Shown in pieces: positions 3,001 to 43,700 of a stretch of 64,000 nt of DNA. A program made the position numbers. The DNA is from Pocillopora damicornis. Taxonomy: Eukaryota. The stretch's first letter is position 1. Every line of letters begins with the position of its first letter. Where the stretch lies: assembly GCF_003704095.1 (NCBI RefSeq), contig NW_020845300.1, forward strand, positions 496,001 to 560,000. The letters are read 5' to 3'.

Positions 3001-6000
3001 TGGTCAAAAGCTAACCAAAACAGAGGTTTCTAAAAACAGCCCTCTTGAAGTGACCAGAGTTTCAATTTTCAATCTCCAGGATAGAACAAATGCCAACATC
3101 ACATTTTATAAAATTCTATAAACCTGTGTTGCATTAATTGCAACAATGTAGTCGATGATTTTAATAAGGGGGAAGGGGNNNNNNNNNNAGAGATGAAGAG
3201 ATGCCATTTTCAGTCAAGTGTCATAGGCAGTTCAGGGATTTCTCTAGCTTTGTTACATAGTGATTTCTGACTGGTCCAGGAAACTTAAACCTATCTGCTG
3301 CTCACCCAGATGAAAAACTAACACCACAGTTCTAATTAGCTCCTTGTAATATTTAACTTTATCTAATTGCTTCTAGGATAACTTTGGTTCTGAGTTTGGT
3401 CACACAAAACTAAATTTAAATACATTATAATATGGTACTACTCTCATTTAATTAACATGCTGATCCTTTTACTCAATGCGAGTTTTACTTACAGTCAATA
3501 ACATAATACTTGGTGGTTTCATTGGATACTCTGGTGGCAGAGTTATTCTGCCATGATATCGTCCCCCAGCAAAGTCACTGTCAGGAGGGCCACGTACTGT
3601 GAAGTGCCATTCAAACAAATTATCCTGCAGTGATACAACCTCTTGTTATGACTCCATCATATGGCTATCATACTAGTACTACTATTTATTATCAAATTTC
3701 TCAGATACTATAGTATCTGAGTTGCTTTTCTGTCACAGCATCATACAGTAATAGCATTTAAACCCCTTGACCTTCCAGAAATTATCAAAATGTAACTTCT
3801 CCCTATACTATCCATACAATGTTTAGTAAACAGGTAATGAGAATACTCTCCAACTTTTCAGGAAGGGTTAGTAGTCATCTTCACCTAAAGTAGAATTCTT
3901 TTAGCTTATCTACAAGGAAATTTTCAGTAGCAAAAGGGGAGAATTAACAATCAGATCTTGGGAGTTAACGAGTTCAACTGCTGACTCTTCACCATCAACA
4001 AACAGGTTCTGCCATGATTACTAAAACAACCACAAGCAGCGACTGTCAGCCTCCGATTAAATTCTCGCTCTATGAGTGTACCATACTTTGCTAGAGACTG
4101 GTTCAAGACCCAGCACGTCATGTAAATATGCTTGCATTTCCACTACTACGTGCTGCATTTTAACATAGTTATACTCATATTCCTTCCGTGTTTCCAATGA
4201 ATTTCACGGACCCAAATTCATTGTTTACCTCCAGTGGTTGCGCAAAATACAGCTCTGTTGGTTGACTCAACTCCTTTGCTTCTCTCATCAAGCGTTTCAC
4301 TCCTAAAAATTGGAGTTAGAAAATCATAACAAGAACATCAAACCGAATTCATGACAAACTTGTACATGATGAAGAATGAAATAATCGAAATCTGTTTGGA
4401 GGAACGTTTTCAAAATTTAACTGTGATTTAACTGAGCTGCTCAAAAGAAATCGTTACCTGGACTTCTTAAATTATATCTTGCTTCCATACTGTAACAAAG
4501 GACAAAATTTTACGAACAAGACAGGTATAATATTACGGACGAACGCTCATCTCCTTTCCAACACTGACGGATGCTTGTTTGTATGTGCTCTGCCTACGTG
4601 TCGAACACTACGAGGAACAAGCCAGCGTACATACTCGACCCAGTCTAACACGGAGTGCGACACGAAAGCGGCAAATTACAACGTCACGCAACTCAGGCAT
4701 TTCACGCAGCCTTATAAGATGGGAGAAAAGAAAAAGGAAAGAAAGAAAAGTAAGGTGGACGAAAAAAGAACAAAGCTATTAAGCGTGTAGTTTACTTCCG
4801 TATCTTGATGCCATTCGTGAAGGGAAAGTGCATTTACAGTAAAGGTTACTTTTTCTGCAGCTCATACCAGGTTTTACCGCGGCAGGCAAATCTAGAAACT
4901 TAGAATTTCATTGGATACCATTCGGGATATTTAAAAGCATATAAACAATCATCTAAAAAAAGGTAAGTGAGTAAAGAATGAAGAATAAATAGAGGGGTTA
5001 CCGGTCGTTTCGTATGCAGACTGTTGAGTCATTTCGTATCCTGTTAAGTCGTTTCGTACTCAAACTAATAAAGTATGTTTTTCTTGATAAGTATGTTTAA
5101 ATTTATGGTCGGTTTCTTTTATTGTGAATTGAAATATTACATGCATAAAATAATTTTTGTTTCCTAGTGTTCATTTTTGAAGTGCGACTACTTTGTGTGT
5201 CCAATTTACATCATCAACCAGGCGATAAAACCAAATCATGCAGCCAGTGTAAGGTACGCGCGAGGTATTTCGAATAAATGTTTATTAGGAGGGGTAAGAA
5301 TCAGGTAAGAATCAATCAGCGGTTTTGGCAAAAATCCACGAGTGATTTGGGTACGAAACGACTTAAGAGTGGGTTCGAATCGACCGGATAACATTAGAGG
5401 AGCGCGCGCACAATAATGTATTATGACAATAAATTGATTGTATATTTATCAACTTCAATTGTTCGCTGACGTCGTAAACGTATCGTGGTAGCTTAAACAC
5501 ACACACTTTTTCAAAGATGCTCGAAGAGGCTGATCAATGCTCTGAGGGGGAAAGTGCCTTTCCGGGTCTAATAACACAGGATCGTGAAGAAAACTCAATA
5601 TTACGAAGAATTATCGGAGCCAACAAAGGCAAAGCGCGCCGATCGAGAAGTTTCATTCGAGCACAACAGGAAGCTATAGATCTAGTTCTTGATCCTGGAT
5701 TGCCCGAAGTTTTCAAAGTGAAAGAGGAGCCGGAAAACGGATCACAACTGAAATCACTTCATTTTGCCAATATGCAGAGAAGGTGCTCCGAAATATCAAA
5801 ACACCGACTCTCGCGATCGCTCTCTCACGATTTATACAAGCCTGATAACAAAGCAATTTGTGTAAAGGGGGTGAAGGATGGAGAATTTCTGGAGAAAGAA
5901 CAACTGGGAGAAGTAAATGATGAAGTTAGCGCTGAGGTAACTCAGGGGGTAGATGGTCGGCCATTGAAATCACTCCATTGGAGAGCGCTGGACCAGAGGC

Positions 6001-40700: not shown

Positions 40701-43700
40701 TAGTTTTCTGCCGGATTTACTCTGAATTAATTTCTGATGCGTGACCTTTGAAGTCGTGGCGTTACGGCATCTTGCGCTATAGGGTTTGCGTTAACAATGA
40801 AGCGCAAATTTTCTCCGAAAAGATCCTCGAAATTTCGGGACTCACTAAGGTTCCCATTGAATTTATCCGCGAAATTTCGGATGAAACCAATCAATAGCTG
40901 CTTCGAAAGTTCGTCGAAGTGTCGCGCAAATTTCGTTTCGGACCAAAGTTCGTTGAATAGCTAGGAATTTCGTCGACAACTTTTGCATAATATAATACTG
41001 TAACACATGATTAGTAGAACACTTTTTTCAGTCACATCACGCAAAAATCTCTTTCTTATTTGAAATCAGCTATGGCAAGTCCACCCATCCAATTGTCTCT
41101 TCAGAAGGAGAGCCTAGGCTCAATTCCCAAATCAAGTCTTCAGTATCATTCATCAAAATAGCACATCTTTCACTGTAACCACTAAGCTTAAAATATACCA
41201 AGTCCTCCTTTCCTAGAACAGATTTGGATGTTTTCATCCCTTCTTCAGATTGAATAGTTTTTTTGCCTAACTGGTATGTTAACTCAGGCCTTTTAGCATC
41301 AGTGTACAAGGTACTTGAATGTGGTGGGATGGCCAGTTTATTTGGTGAAAGTGCTATCTGAGTGACTAGCATCCAATTCCTCCTTACAGTGTCGCTGCTA
41401 ACTCAAAAGTTACGGTCTTGATAATAAGAAAAATTGCCAACCTAAAAACACCTTGATTTCCAAACCATTTCTTTTTCTCAGTACCATAGGAAGCATTAAT
41501 CAATTATACACTTTTACAAAATATAGACAAATTTTCACGTTCAAGGTGATAATTGGCAATTATTTAAAACGAATCAAACACCAAATACCACAGAAGGGTT
41601 ACAACTAGTATTAGAAAACATCCTTCCTGACAATTGTTTTTGTCTTGCAAAAATAGTAGCAAATAATCTGTTATCCTTAACAAACGGTAGAATGTAATTT
41701 TAGTCAGTGCAAAAATGCAGTACCTAGGTTGCCTTGACAACTTAGGTGTCAATAAAAAAAATGGTCTTTAGTAAATAAAACAATAGAGTTTATTCGCGGG
41801 CATAAACATCTTTGGGGCCTGACTCAGAGTCATTTTAGATGAAGATTAAAACGACTCTGAGAAGAAAATAAAAAACTTAAGAAAATGTTCCATTATACCC
41901 AAGAAGTGATAAGAAATAATCTATGCCGTGATAAATCAATACTAATTTTTTAATGTTACAAGTTGGCTTTGAATACAAGACTTTCTACTGTGAATGGATA
42001 GCATTATTATTATTATCATTATTTTTTTAATTATATCATCAGTATAAATGAACAAAACAAAAACAAGGAACTTGGAGGAAAAAATTGAGAAGTAAAATTA
42101 GGTAAGATGCTTCACACGCGCTGAACGGAGTATTACACACCGCGGCTTGGTATGTTAAAAAGTTTTTATTATATAGATACTGATGAAATACCACGACTTT
42201 TCCTTTTACTAAAAAATAAAATCTTCATCGCGCGCAGGCGGAAGATACTATTTTTATCTTTCACGTGAGAGGATATCGGTGTCGCCGTGGTTACTAACAT
42301 GATTAGCCAATTACAAGAGAGCTTCCCGTTCAGGCACGCGGCCGGTTTTTTTTGAAATTTCATTCACAAAATGGCTTCGAGGTGCGAAGACAGTACAGTT
42401 ACCGGTGACTTTCTCGATAAGCTGTCAAATTTTCACATCGATACTTTTTACGAGCGATAGGTGACCACTTTAATTGCACTATTTTGCTGTTTCAAAGATG
42501 AATACAAAAAAAAGTTGTCTTTTATGTAGGAATTTCATCAGTATCTATTACATAAACAGAATATTACATGACCGCTTGGGGATACGAATTTTATCTTCTC
42601 GTGCTGAAAGTATCTCTCATACAGAGAAGTATAGAAGTATACTTTCAGCACGAGAAGATAAAATTCGTATCCCCAAGCGGCCATGTAATATCCTCTATTT
42701 ATTGAAGTGATGTACTACAATTATTGTGTTTACATTCTTTTTTCGTCTGAGAACAATTTAAACAAAAATACGGGCTACTCATAGATCACCTGATTTTCAT
42801 TCAGCATGAGATTACGCTTCGAGAAAAAAGCTTGGAAACCTATTTAAAAGAGGTCAAATCTTATTGCTCGTCAGGTTTGTTTGAGGTACAATCCCTTGTT
42901 TGCTAATAGCGTAAATCATGAAATCGACCATCAAAAAAAAAGTTGAACAAAAATGTACTAAGGTAACTCATTGTGTTGAGGAACCTTTTATCTCGAAAAT
43001 GATCAGTGCTAAGAACGAAGGACGTATTTCTTTTCCGCCATGGAAAGCTTTAAATTGAGTCAGGCACAATCACGAAATTTAACAATTCACGTTTTTGGAA
43101 CACAGNNNNNNNNNNNNNNNNNNNNNNNNNNNNNNNNNNNNNNNNNNNNNNNNNNNNNNNNNNNNNNNNNNNNNNNNNNNNNNNNNNNNNNNNNNNNNNN
43201 NNNNNTTTTGGACTTTGGTAAACCGTTTAACGTTTCGTGCAATCCTTATTTATTTTTGGTCAACCGTTTGAGGGCCTAAGCTATCCGTTTTTGGACTTTT
43301 GTCAACCGTTTAAATTTTTCGCCATCTGTTTAAGCGGTTATGGAAACCGTTTAAACGCTTGAGTTAGCCGTTCGGTATCCGTTTAAAACCGTTTTTCTAG
43401 ACCGTTTAACGAAAAAGCGTTAGTGTCCGTTTTCCCATGGAGGGTCATATGTGAACTTCCTGATTAATAATCAAAAGAGATATAATGTTTTCCTGTCAGC
43501 ATTGATGCCCAGAAAGAGTTCCGCTTTAATTGGAAACAATTGCAATGGTGAAGTGTGAAGTTATTGCACTGTGACATTTGACGCGAAGACTCCAATGACG
43601 CCCAGAAAGAGTTCCGCTTTGGAAACAATTGCAATGGTGAACAGACATGGTTAATGCTACTCTGGTTGAAAGATTTAATTAATGTAACCGAGAAGTTACA

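What the first reader, a model, noticed from the sequence alone, without database searches (positions are those of the whole stretch)
5021..43105. Segmental duplication of an [orphan -><- TRPA1] unit giving two diverged TRPA1 channels
Seen: second versions of exons 2-9, 14, 15 and 20 with their introns, plus the neighbouring orphan, all clearly diverged and carrying copy-specific transposon insertions. Every visible copy-B exon keeps its frame and splice sites while the co-duplicated orphan has decayed. Established: TRPA channels are thermal and chemical sensors. Inference: a retained young TRPA1 paralogue pair in a probable coral, possibly tuned to different stimuli. Automated annotation would likely fuse or fragment it.
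[Added by the scan's program, not by the reader: the finding's places include an assembly gap (unread letters, written N; its length is only estimated) at 8021 to 8120, 8345 to 8444, 11358 to 11457, 18492 to 18591, 20161 to 20260, 21599 to 21698. Whether the letters on both sides are continuous or in frame is not known: test that first.]
Basis: partly seen in the sequence, partly recalled or inferred. Interest (0 to 1): 0.75.

Follow-up and report, generated by a model that had tools for sequence, protein, structure and literature searches.

The report
Diverged second TRPA1 copy, mis-scaffolded
A draft coral scaffold holds one intact TRPA1-type sensor-channel gene with pieces of a second, faster-evolving copy wrongly stitched into it, so a real duplicate probably exists but its position and completeness remain unknown.

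Summary
A 20-exon TRPA1-like gene (copy A, minus strand, 32631 to 7829) is complete. It matches a 1208-aa database protein, P0001, with 9 differences in 1210 aligned residues. Second versions (copy B) of exons 2-9, 14, 15 and 20 and of the neighbouring "orphan" are present.

All B exons keep frame, AG/GT sites and the stop codon. The B orphan carries at least 6 frameshifts and a stop.

The scaffold does not show two genes. B lies on four gap-bounded contigs interleaved with A, in mixed orientations and out of order. One B contig sits inside A exon 12, whose flanking contigs overlap by 28 exact bases, so that placement is wrong.

A and B differ by dS 0.13 and 13% of residues, against 0.7% within type A. 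B took 38 of 49 polarisable replacements. Exon-5 pieces of both types, and B-type orphan pieces, occur in independent public proteins.

Best reading: a lineage-specific duplicate of the [restricted gene + TRPA1] unit, with B under relaxed but real coding constraint and its true position unknown. Uncollapsed deep haplotypes are not excluded. Whether B is complete or expressed was not shown. Interest is modest.

The parts
7829..32631 (-). Copy A: complete TRPA1-like gene of 20 exons. E1 32631-32482; E2 30414-30234; E3 29070-28838; E4 27484-27320; E5 27121-26622; E6 25643-25460; E7 24889-24782; E8 24499-24411; E9 23863-23717; E10 21598-21487; E11 20970-20834; E12 20348-20261 continued at 18463-18436 (18491-18464 repeats 20288-20261); E13 18036-17759; E14 17226-16933; E15 15356-15235; E16 14994-14784; E17 13758-13579; E18 12870-12802; E19 11872-11705; E20 8011-7829 including the TAG stop.
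   Evidence: tblastn of P0001. Exon-wise comparison gives 9 differences in 1210 aligned residues and no stops. Boundaries were read from sequence. All 19 donors are GT. 18 of 19 acceptors are AG, and the acceptor of E10 lies in gap 21599-21698. Pfam finds Ion_trans on ORFs 13531-13815 and 14775-15116.
5517..6806 (+). Neighbour gene, copy A: intact single-exon ORF. The stop-to-stop frame is 5478-6806 (442 codons), with Met at codon 14. It converges on the 3' end of TRPA1.
   Evidence: ORF list. No Pfam family. Five similar-length relatives: P0258 81%, P0259 56%, P0260 43%, P0262 37%, P0265 38%.
8445..11357 (.). Contig 3 (B material). It holds B exon 20 at 8467-8649 (+ strand) and the decayed B neighbour gene at about 8990-10366 (- strand). 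Homology to A ends at 10793. The contig lies inside the last intron of A, inverted relative to A.
   Evidence: At least 6 frameshifting indels and one stop in the B neighbour gene. Flanks beyond 5017/10793 are not homologous.
18592..20160 (+). Contig 5 (B material). It holds part of B exon 14 (18592-18683) and B exon 15 (19890-20011). It is inverted relative to A and wrongly inserted in the middle of A exon 12.
   Evidence: The flanking contig ends 18464-18491 and 20261-20288 are identical over 28 nt. This is the only exact end overlap of 12 nt or more among the 14 contigs in either orientation. P0001 reads straight through that overlap.
21699..23294 (-). Contig 7 (B material). It holds part of B exon 6 (23294-23207), E7 (22828-22721), E8 (22423-22335) and part of E9 (21800-21699). 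It is placed inside intron 9 of A.
   Evidence: Both contig ends stop in mid-exon with exact matches to A of 54 and 25 nt.
34177..43105 (-). Contig 10 (B material). It holds B E5 (35758-35259), E4 (36140-35976), E3 (38535-38321) and E2 (39784-39604) with their introns. It also holds 1050 nt of non-homologous sequence (34177-35226) with retroelement-like ORFs. It is placed upstream of A exon 1. B exon 1 is not visible; its expected place falls in gap 43106-43205.
18492..20260 (.). Demonstrated scaffolding error: two 100-N gaps plus contig 5 inserted between two contigs that in fact overlap.
44384..46615 (.). A further alternative-copy pair outside the finding. 44432-45198 (contig 12) is an inverted 86% copy of 45854-46615 (the left end of contig 13), around gap 45754-45853.
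   Evidence: The contig-13 end has an exact 54-nt match to contig 12.

Best explanation
The window holds one intact TRPA1-type channel gene (copy A) and its convergent, taxon-restricted neighbour gene. It also holds fragments of a second, diverged version (copy B) of the same unit.

The B sequences are real. Their positions are scaffolding artefacts. B contigs are short pieces bounded by gaps, and each was placed beside its A counterpart, in either orientation.

B is most likely a lineage-specific paralogue from one segmental duplication. The duplication reached from about 460 nt upstream of the neighbour gene (5017) to at least the TRPA1 upstream region.

Since the duplication:
- A kept the ancestral constraint (omega about 0.22).
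- The B TRPA1 copy evolved about 3.5 times faster in protein (omega about 0.76). It still kept its reading frame, splice sites and ankyrin-repeat signature.
- The B neighbour gene became a pseudogene.

What is shown: the two versions, their divergence, the misjoin, the asymmetry, and the presence of both types elsewhere.

What is inferred: that A and B are two loci rather than two haplotypes, that the duplication was a single event, and that A encodes a tetrameric cation channel gated like other TRPA1 channels.
For: 1. A is complete and B is partial. P0001 maps to 20 A exons with 9 differences in 1210 residues. B covers 11 of 20 exons.

2. The scaffold is wrong where it can be tested. The 28-nt exact overlap of the contigs flanking contig 5 lies inside exon 12. 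B pieces lie in both orientations, and E20 lies left of E14/E15 on the same strand. B contig ends, and the contig ends facing them, match the other copy exactly over 54, 54, 54, 25, 25, 18 and 17 nt.

3. Divergence is far above within-type variation. Over 607 codons, nucleotide identity is 92.6% and residue identity 86.8%, with dS 0.134 and dN/dS 0.47. A against P0001 differs at 0.7% of residues, and P0001 carries the A state at 79 of 80 diagnostic sites. The neighbour gene gives a similar dS of 0.147, as expected from one event.

4. Evolution is asymmetric. Of 80 residue differences, 38 are B-derived, 11 A-derived and 31 ambiguous (binomial p = 1.4e-4). In the exon-5 tree the B stem is 0.11 and the A stem 0.034, and A-type and B-type are sisters at 100/99 support. 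In the neighbour gene, 24 changes are B-derived, 10 A-derived and 5 ambiguous, and only B is broken.

5. B's coding frame is maintained. There are no frameshifts in 1632 aligned exon nt. About 12.8 would be expected from half the non-exon density (87 non-multiple-of-3 indels in 5550 nt), and 7.7 from the B neighbour gene. Both exon indels are multiples of 3. Pfam Ank scores of B exons are about equal to A (exon 5: 126.2 against 121.8 bits).

6. Both types occur in independent data. B-type exon-5 pieces are P0235 (127/128 identical, cluster of 99), P0239 (114/114, cluster of 8) and P0247 (110/113). The A-type piece is P0236 (147/149, cluster of 56). All four are pure A or pure B at every diagnostic site they cover. 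Seven of 10 short relatives of the neighbour gene are B-type, at 91-98% identity.

7. Homology ends inside both contigs at 5017/10793, and the flanks are unrelated. A duplication breakpoint would look like this.

8. Duplicates and gaps are confined to 5-47 kb. The 18-kb contig to the right of them is clean.
Against: - No contig carries both A and B, and no duplication junction is seen.
- Every B contig is gap-bounded and sits next to its A counterpart. Uncollapsed haplotigs look exactly like this.
- Nine of 20 B exons are absent from the window. They may be collapsed onto A, unplaced, or not exist.
- No B-type protein of 295 aa or more appeared in two searches. The best identity to B exon 5 was P0001 at 88%. 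A-type has a full-length cluster of 50. B may therefore be unexpressed. A full-length B could also hide inside the 90% cluster of P0001, whose members could not be listed.
- B's substitution pattern alone is not distinguishable from neutrality (p = 0.15).
- P0239, a B-type piece, ends 14 residues before the exon end with a changed last residue, for an unknown reason.
- The end of homology at 5017/10793 could instead be a large insertion in one haplotype.
- The split of dS into two equal branches is an assumption.
Confidence: 0.6

Rival explanations
1. A and B are the two haplotypes of one locus in a heterozygous individual (uncollapsed haplotigs). On this reading there is a single TRPA1 gene and a single neighbour gene, and the 'duplication' is purely an assembly artefact.
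For: - Five of 5 repeat pairs lie on different contigs, with the alternative copy bounded by gaps and adjacent to its counterpart.
- Contig ends stop on exact 54-, 25- or 28-nt matches, as graph branch tips do.
- One placement is provably wrong.
- About 55% of the A locus has no second version. That would fit haplotypes that are identical there.
Against: - dS 0.134 and 13.2% residue divergence, against 0.7% between A and an independent A-type protein.
- Two alleles of one working gene should not differ 38 to 11 in derived replacements. One allele's neighbour gene should not carry at least 6 frameshifts.
- Both types are common in other data and show no mosaics at 13-19 diagnostic sites each.
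- The rest of the window shows no alternative contigs.
- The flanks at 5017/10793 are unrelated.
Confidence: 0.2
2. B comes from a second genome in the sample: a hybrid parent, a cryptic sister species or a mixed colony. On this reading B is the orthologue of A and not a duplicate.
For: A dS of about 0.13 is in the range of related species (from general knowledge, not tested here). B-type pieces in other data differ from the window's B by 1-9% of residues, so the B type has diversity of its own.
Against: - An orthologue should be under the same constraint as A. B shows omega of about 0.76 and a broken neighbour gene.
- The excess sequence is confined to this locus. The adjacent GPCR and dynein region shows none.
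Confidence: 0.07
3. The scaffold is right as drawn, and the B segments are real local duplications inside and around one TRPA1 gene. They would be extra or mutually exclusive exons, plus an inverted repeat at the 3' end.
For: Contigs 7 and 10 have the orientation of the gene. Tandem exon duplication is a known route to alternative exons (from general knowledge).
Against: - Contig 5 lies inside exon 12, between contigs that overlap by 28 nt.
- Contigs 5 and 3 are inverted.
- Contig 7 begins and ends in mid-exon.
- P0001 uses A exons at 79 of 80 diagnostic sites and its length equals that of other coral TRPA1 proteins.
Confidence: 0.02
4. B is a paralogous copy but a dead one: a partial or unexpressed pseudogene, so there is only one working channel.
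For: - Omega for B is about 0.76 and is not significantly below 1.
- B has replacements at residues invariant in 6 outgroups, for example D292Y, E331G, D336K, P526S/L527V in an ankyrin TPLH motif, and P547R.
- No long B-type protein was found.
- The co-duplicated neighbour gene is dead.
- B exon 1 and 8 further exons are unseen.
- P0239 is truncated.
Against: - There are no frameshifts or stops in 607 codons, where 5.6-12.8 frameshifts are expected.
- Both exon indels are in frame.
- All visible splice sites are kept.
- Exon divergence (5-9%) is below that of non-exon sequence (10-16%).
- The ankyrin profile scores are kept.
Confidence: 0.3

Closest known systems
TRPA1 channels with solved structures (PDB 7ykr, 6pqq, 6v9v, 3j9p, 6wj5)
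   Same: P0001, the database protein that copy A encodes almost residue for residue, has TRPA1 as its eight best distinct PDB sequences (E 3.5e-124 to 1.1e-115). It matches a transmembrane-only TRPA1 construct over residues 797-1196 (E 9.7e-66). Pfam finds 13 Ank stretches plus Ion_trans at 857-1083.
   Different: The strongest aligned stretches cover about residues 234-742, and the match to the transmembrane construct covers 797-1196. Conservation of the electrophile-reactive cysteines, the coiled coil and the gating behaviour was not examined here.
Multiple TRPA1 homologues in other corals (Acropora muricata P0012 and P0023, A. millepora P0121, Montipora foliosa P0009, Porites evermanni P0006)
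   Same: Corals already carry more than one TRPA1-like gene. P0012 and P0023 are listed on a contig of the same length, 30,066,574 bp. Coral genomes are reported to contain TRPA channels (PMC4878875, passages read).
   Different: Those copies are old: they are 62-70% identical to P0001. The A/B split here is younger than the split from every sampled relative (sisters at 100/99 support). It includes a co-duplicated neighbour gene.
False duplications and uncollapsed haplotigs in short-read draft assemblies
   Same: Short gap-bounded contigs sit next to their counterpart in either orientation, contig ends stop on exact k-mer-length matches, and there is one demonstrable misjoin.
   Different: The divergence, the asymmetry and the decay of one neighbour-gene copy are not allele-like.
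Heterozygote excess at TRPA1 in Acropora tenuis (PMC11874183; abstract and passages read)
   Same: This is the same gene family in a coral. That paper reports nine linked SNPs with more heterozygotes and fewer alternative homozygotes than expected, and reads this as balancing selection.
   Different: It concerns a different species and a different kind of data. My own inference, which is not in the paper, is that reads from an unresolved second copy mapped onto one reference gene would give the same genotype pattern. Nothing here tests that. The paper's supplementary tables could not be seen.

Membership tests
TRPA1 / TRPA subfamily (copy A) | Long N-terminal ankyrin-repeat domain | tested here: met
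   Pfam Ank gives 13 stretches in P0001. A exons 2, 4, 5, 7, 8 and 9 each score as ankyrin repeats.
TRPA1 / TRPA subfamily (copy A) | Six-helix ion-transport domain with a pore region | tested here: met
   PF00520 matches residues 857-1083 of P0001 (6.8e-17). It also matches window ORFs 14775-15116 and 13531-13815.
TRPA1 / TRPA subfamily (copy A) | Closer to TRPA1 than to other TRP subfamilies | tested here: met
   The eight best distinct PDB sequences are all TRPA1. NOMPC matches only through ankyrin repeats (residues 196-665). No other TRP subfamily is among the 60 rows shown. Sources name the coral relatives 'TRPA1 homolog'.
TRPA1 / TRPA subfamily (copy A) | TRP-like helix and C-terminal coiled coil; reactive cysteines before S1 | not tested
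   No structure was predicted and no residue-level alignment to human TRPA1 was read.
TRPA1 / TRPA subfamily (copy A) | Cation-channel activity gated by temperature or electrophiles | not testable with these tools
   This needs electrophysiology.
Second functional TRPA1 gene (copy B) | All exons present and open | tested here: not met
   Only 11 of 20 exons are in the window and 3 of these are cut by gaps. Exons 1, 10-13 and 16-19 are not found even at E = 10.
Second functional TRPA1 gene (copy B) | Frame, splice sites and stop codon kept in the exons present | tested here: met
   No stops in 607 codons. Indels are 21 and 3 nt only. All visible AG/GT sites and the TAG stop are kept.
Second functional TRPA1 gene (copy B) | Evidence of a full-length product | tested here: inconclusive
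   No B-type protein of 295 aa or more was found. Only pieces of 113-128 aa were found. The members of the P0001 cluster could not be listed.
Segmental duplication (paralogues) | Two loci in one haploid genome, or a junction between copies | not testable with these tools
   No reads and no eukaryotic genome collection were available. No contig joins A and B. Homology ends at 5017/10793 with unrelated flanks, which is suggestive only.
Segmental duplication (paralogues) | Unequal constraint on the two copies | tested here: met
   38 B-derived against 11 A-derived replacements. The neighbour gene is intact in A and broken in B.
Uncollapsed haplotigs | Alternative contigs bounded by gaps, beside their counterpart | tested here: met
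   True for 5 of 5 repeat pairs.
Uncollapsed haplotigs | Divergence at the level of alleles, with equal constraint | tested here: not met
   dS 0.134 and 13.2% of residues, against 0.7% within type A. The asymmetry has p = 1.4e-4.

The most novel reading that the evidence does not exclude
B is a complete, expressed TRPA1 paralogue kept by selection. Its frame, splice sites and ankyrin signature are preserved at an omega of about 0.76. Its ankyrin domain, S1-S4 region and C-terminal exon have all shifted, giving this coral a second sensor subunit with altered gating or altered assembly with A. As a corollary, unresolved TRPA1 copies of this kind in coral reference genomes could mimic the heterozygote excess reported at coral TRPA1. 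A bolder alternative is also not excluded: A and B could be two ancient haplogroups of one locus kept by balancing selection.
Probability: 0.25. Interest if true: 0.55.

Novelty: new member of a known kind. Interest (0 to 1): 0.3.

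Why it matters
TRPA1 is a candidate sensor of heat, oxidants and irritants in corals. It has been named as a target of selection in an extreme-habitat coral population (PMC11874183, passages read).

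A young second copy would be a natural experiment in sensor divergence. It would also be a practical trap. In this assembly it breaks the gene model: B exons sit inside A's introns and inside one A exon. In population data, reads from two copies mapped to one gene would look like fixed heterozygosity.

For annotation, the useful result is a clean 20-exon model for A and a list of the contigs that should be taken out of it.

Tried and rejected
- **Internal exon duplication or mutually exclusive exons.** Rejected. Contig 5 is inverted and lies inside exon 12. Contig 7 starts and ends in mid-exon. P0001 uses A exons.
- **B as a long-dead pseudogene.** Not favoured because of the frameshift test. 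Kept as a rival.
- **B exon 1 and the other missing B exons.** tblastn of P0001 at E = 10 found none.
- **Homology of the flanks beyond 5017/10793, of contig 2, of A's upstream 32632-33560 and of the left part of contig 10.** Only short dispersed repeats were found.
- **Pfam on 10 ORFs from copy-specific blocks at E up to 10.** Nothing credible.
- **Neighbour gene.** Pfam gave no family. The ESM Atlas gave a best score of 0.79, below the level that means anything.
- **Collections.** No eukaryotic genome or read collection was on hand. The bacterial genome collection, phage, plasmid and E. coli sets were not searched, being irrelevant.
- **Supplementary files** of the two papers were not seen. 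Tables S3, S8 and S9 of PMC11874183 might bear on the heterozygote-excess remark.
- **Spliced model.** Searches were made exon by exon (exon 5 of A and of B). The natural database protein P0001 stood in for the A product. dN/dS was summed from per-exon counts.
- **Not run:** no structure or complex prediction.

Full report
**What is in the window.** The 64-kb window has 38% G+C and 13 runs of N, which cut it into 14 contigs. A self-comparison gives five diverged repeat pairs between 5 and 47 kb and none in the 18-kb contig to the right:
- (a) 5017-7075 and 7821-8020 against 10793-8719 and 8656-8458, inverted, 80-93% identity;
- (b) 15086-17024 against 20160-18592, inverted, 84-86%;
- (c) 21699-23294 against 23762-25547, direct, 84-86%;
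- (d) 26592-32422 against 35227-43105, direct, 64-87%;
- (e) 44432-45198 against 46615-45854, inverted, 86%, outside the finding.

**Gene A.** The 168-residue frame at 26618-27124 (minus strand) was searched against the large protein collection for longer proteins (5858 hits among 6769 candidates, 120 listed). It is 100% identical to P0001, a 1208-aa protein from an unnamed 4556-nt contig, which represents a cluster of 50. tblastn of P0001 on the window lays out 20 exons on the minus strand from 32631 to 7829.

Read exon by exon, they differ from P0001 at 9 of 1210 aligned residues and have no stops. All 19 donors are GT. 18 of 19 acceptors are AG, and the acceptor of exon 10 lies in gap 21599-21698.

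P0001 has 13 Pfam Ank stretches and Ion_trans at 857-1083. Its eight best distinct PDB sequences are all TRPA1 (E 3.5e-124 to 1.1e-115). The nearest named relatives are coral 'TRPA1 homolog' proteins from Porites, Acropora and Montipora. They are 70-72% identical over exon 5, and the Montipora, Acropora muricata and Porites proteins are 67-70% identical over the whole protein. 'Probable coral' and 'TRPA1-like' therefore both hold. P0001, a natural database protein, stood in for it.

**The gaps, tested first.**
- Gaps 18492-18591 and 20161-20260. The last 28 bases before the first gap (18464-18491) are identical to the first 28 after the second (20261-20288). This is the only exact end-to-end overlap of 12 nt or more among all 14 contigs in both orientations. 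P0001 reads through it in frame, inside exon 12. The two flanks are therefore continuous, and contig 5 (18592-20160) with its two gaps is wrongly inserted.
- Gap 21599-21698. On its left is the first base of A exon 10. On its right is the middle of B exon 9. These are not continuous, because A has an intron there.
- Gap 23295-23394. It lies between the middle of B exon 6 and A intron 9, so it is not continuous either.
- Gaps 8021-8120 and 8345-8444. They bracket a 224-nt contig that matches nothing else in the window. A exon 20 reads leftward from 8011 and B exon 20 reads rightward from 8467. The two last exons face each other, which cannot serve both genes.
- Gap 11358-11457. It lies between a dispersed-repeat copy and A intron 19. 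Continuity cannot be shown.
- Gaps 33561-33937, 34077-34176 and 43106-43205 also lie inside the finding. The last one covers the place where B exon 1 would be.

**Copy B.** Second versions exist for exons 2, 3, 4, 5, 7, 8, 15 and 20 (whole) and 6, 9 and 14 (cut by gaps). They lie on four contigs:
- contig 10: exons 2-5, minus strand, upstream of A exon 1;
- contig 7: exons 6-9, minus strand, in A intron 9;
- contig 5: exons 14-15, plus strand, inside A exon 12;
- contig 3: exon 20, plus strand, with the second neighbour gene, in A's last intron.

The orientations and order do not make a gene. Ends of B contigs, and of the contigs facing them, match the other copy exactly over 54, 54, 54, 25, 25, 18 and 17 nt. 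My inference is that these are branch tips of a k-mer assembly graph which the scaffolder then dropped beside their counterparts.

**Integrity and divergence.** Over 607 aligned codons, A and B are 92.6% identical in nucleotides and 86.8% in residues (80 differences). dS is 0.134, dN 0.063 and dN/dS 0.47, with no stop in either copy. Every visible acceptor, donor and the stop codon is kept in B.

Non-exon sequence differs by 10-16% and exon sequence by 5-9%. That call aligned 1356 of 3004, 943 of 1939, 1393 of 1786 and 3814 of 5831 nt of the four A regions. In 5550 aligned non-exon nt there are 106 indel events, 87 of them not multiples of three. In 1632 exon nt there are two, of 21 and 3 nt.

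If only B's branch were free to decay, about 12.8 frameshifts would be expected (P of none = 3e-6). With the lowest regional density the expectation is 5.6 (P = 0.004). With the B neighbour gene as the yardstick it is 7.7 (P = 5e-4). Pfam Ank scores of B exons equal those of A. B's coding frame has therefore been kept by selection for most of its history.

**Asymmetry.** With six outgroup proteins, 38 of the 80 differences are derived in B, 11 in A and 31 are ambiguous (p = 1.4e-4). Many B changes hit residues invariant in all six outgroups.

Splitting dS equally, which is an assumption, gives omega of about 0.76 for B and 0.22 for A. B alone is not significantly below 1 (p = 0.15). In a tree of exon-5 sequences, A-type and B-type are sisters (100/99 support). 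The B stem is 0.11 and the A stem 0.034, and all other corals' sequences fall outside.

**The neighbour gene.** The A copy is an intact single-exon ORF (5478-6806, Met at codon 14) that converges on TRPA1. It has no Pfam family and no meaningful Atlas neighbour. It is not an orphan, however. Among 15 hits in 1.84 billion representatives, five are similar-length relatives of 389-437 aa at 37-81% identity.

The B copy has eight indels in the ORF, six of them frameshifting, and an in-frame stop. Its last 204 codons give dS 0.147, close to the TRPA1 value, and dN/dS 0.62. There, 24 changes are B-derived, 10 A-derived and 5 ambiguous.

**Independent data.** A search of B exon 5 among longer proteins found nothing closer than P0001 at 88% (120 of 2300 listed). 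Among proteins of 92-294 aa (23 hits among 158 candidates), three are B-type: P0235 (127/128 identical, cluster of 99), P0239 (114/114, cluster of 8, on a 10.7-kb contig) and P0247 (110/113). One is A-type: P0236 (147/149, cluster of 56). The other 19 are 61-74% identical to B.

Each of the four is purely A or purely B at the 13-19 diagnostic sites it covers. Seven of the 10 short relatives of the neighbour gene match the broken B copy at 91-98% and A at only 76-86%. Both versions are therefore real sequences seen elsewhere, each with some variation of its own. B has been seen only as short pieces.

**Paralogues or haplotypes?** The layout alone cannot tell. Bubble contigs from a collapsed young duplicate and from diverged alleles look the same.

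Four things favour two loci:
- The divergence is about twenty times the within-type difference.
- The asymmetry holds in both genes. Alleles of one working locus should not show it.
- Homology ends abruptly at 5017/10793, with unrelated flanks.
- The trouble is confined to this locus.

Three things leave room for doubt:
- There is no junction.
- There is no contig with both types.
- 55% of the A locus lacks a second version.

I put paralogy at about 0.6-0.7, deep haplotypes at 0.2, and a second genome in the sample at under 0.1.

**How it most likely works.** A should form a tetrameric non-selective cation channel, with a long ankyrin domain, six membrane helices and a C-terminal helix, like solved TRPA1 channels. 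This is inferred from family membership and not tested.

If B is complete, it would be a second subunit with changes spread over the ankyrin domain, S1-S4 and the C-terminal exon (9 of 60 residues). Changes spread this widely fit general relaxation better than a change aimed at one domain.

**Comparison and novelty.** Several TRPA1-like genes per coral genome are already annotated, and TRPA channels are reported in corals (PMC4878875, passages read). A young, lineage-specific copy with a co-duplicated neighbour is a new member of a known kind.

One paper reports heterozygote excess at nine linked TRPA1 SNPs in Acropora tenuis and reads it as balancing selection (PMC11874183, abstract and passages read). 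An unresolved second copy would give the same pattern. That is my remark and is untested.

**Limits.**
- No supplementary files.
- Polarisation used proteins only, so synonymous changes could not be assigned to branches.

Noticed in passing
window 47826-48890 (+): An intronless 354-codon frame of a rhodopsin-family GPCR (Pfam 7tm_1, 1.8e-34, residues 48-306). It lies between the TRPA1 upstream region and the dynein gene.
   Followed up: partly
window 49591-62137 (-): The 3' exons of a dynein heavy chain gene: Dynein_C at 49591-49917 and 50682-51194, Dynein_heavy D6 at 54947-55162, and AAA_9 at 59718-59975 and 61811-62137. This region has no gaps and no second versions.
   Followed up: partly
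window 44432-45198 and 45854-46615: An inverted 86% pair around gap 45754-45853, outside the finding. The end of contig 13 matches contig 12 exactly over 54 nt. The two-version region therefore reaches to within about 1.2 kb of the GPCR.
   Followed up: partly
contig ends at 8020, 21699 and 45854: Three contig ends each share exactly 54 identical bases with the other copy, and two others share exactly 25. This regularity looks like k-mer graph tips (k-1 = 54). That is an inference about how the assembly was made.
   Followed up: partly
window 33938-34076 and 43992-44270: A 139-nt contig standing alone between two gaps is a 95% copy of 44122-44257. That stretch is itself part of a two-unit repeat of about 135 nt.
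   Followed up: no
window 34236-34649 (-) and 34598-34978 (+): ORFs in the B-specific 1-kb block after B exon 5. The first gives Atlas scores of 0.97-0.98 to clusters carrying PF26215 HTH_animal (30 of 30 hits). The local Pfam copy finds nothing. From memory, this domain accompanies animal retroelement reverse transcriptases. It is a lead only.
   Followed up: partly
window 12130-12603: A degenerate AGTC microsatellite (119 copies, 69% matches) with a 40-nt higher-order unit, in intron 18 of A. It creates long spurious serine/glutamine-rich frames on the plus strand.
   Followed up: no
window 9715-9931: A 106-nt tandem duplication (2 copies, 86%) inside the decayed B neighbour gene. It is one of its frameshifting lesions.
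   Followed up: yes
window 3764-3974, 29149-29354, 47558-47771; also 2384-2543 with 62441-62600, and 11199-11357 with 45247-45397: Short dispersed repeat families at 67-87% identity. One copy is specific to intron 2 of A. Another forms the right end of contig 3.
   Followed up: no
protein P0239 (B-type exon-5 piece): It is identical to B over 114 residues. It then carries one changed residue and ends 14 residues before the exon end. The cause is unknown: a break in that source's B copy, or a contig or gene-call edge.
   Followed up: no
P0001 residue 511 (A exon 8, 24499-24411): This is the only 1 of 80 diagnostic sites where P0001 carries the B state (D) and not the window's A state (G). It may be a shared polymorphism or a small conversion.
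   Followed up: no
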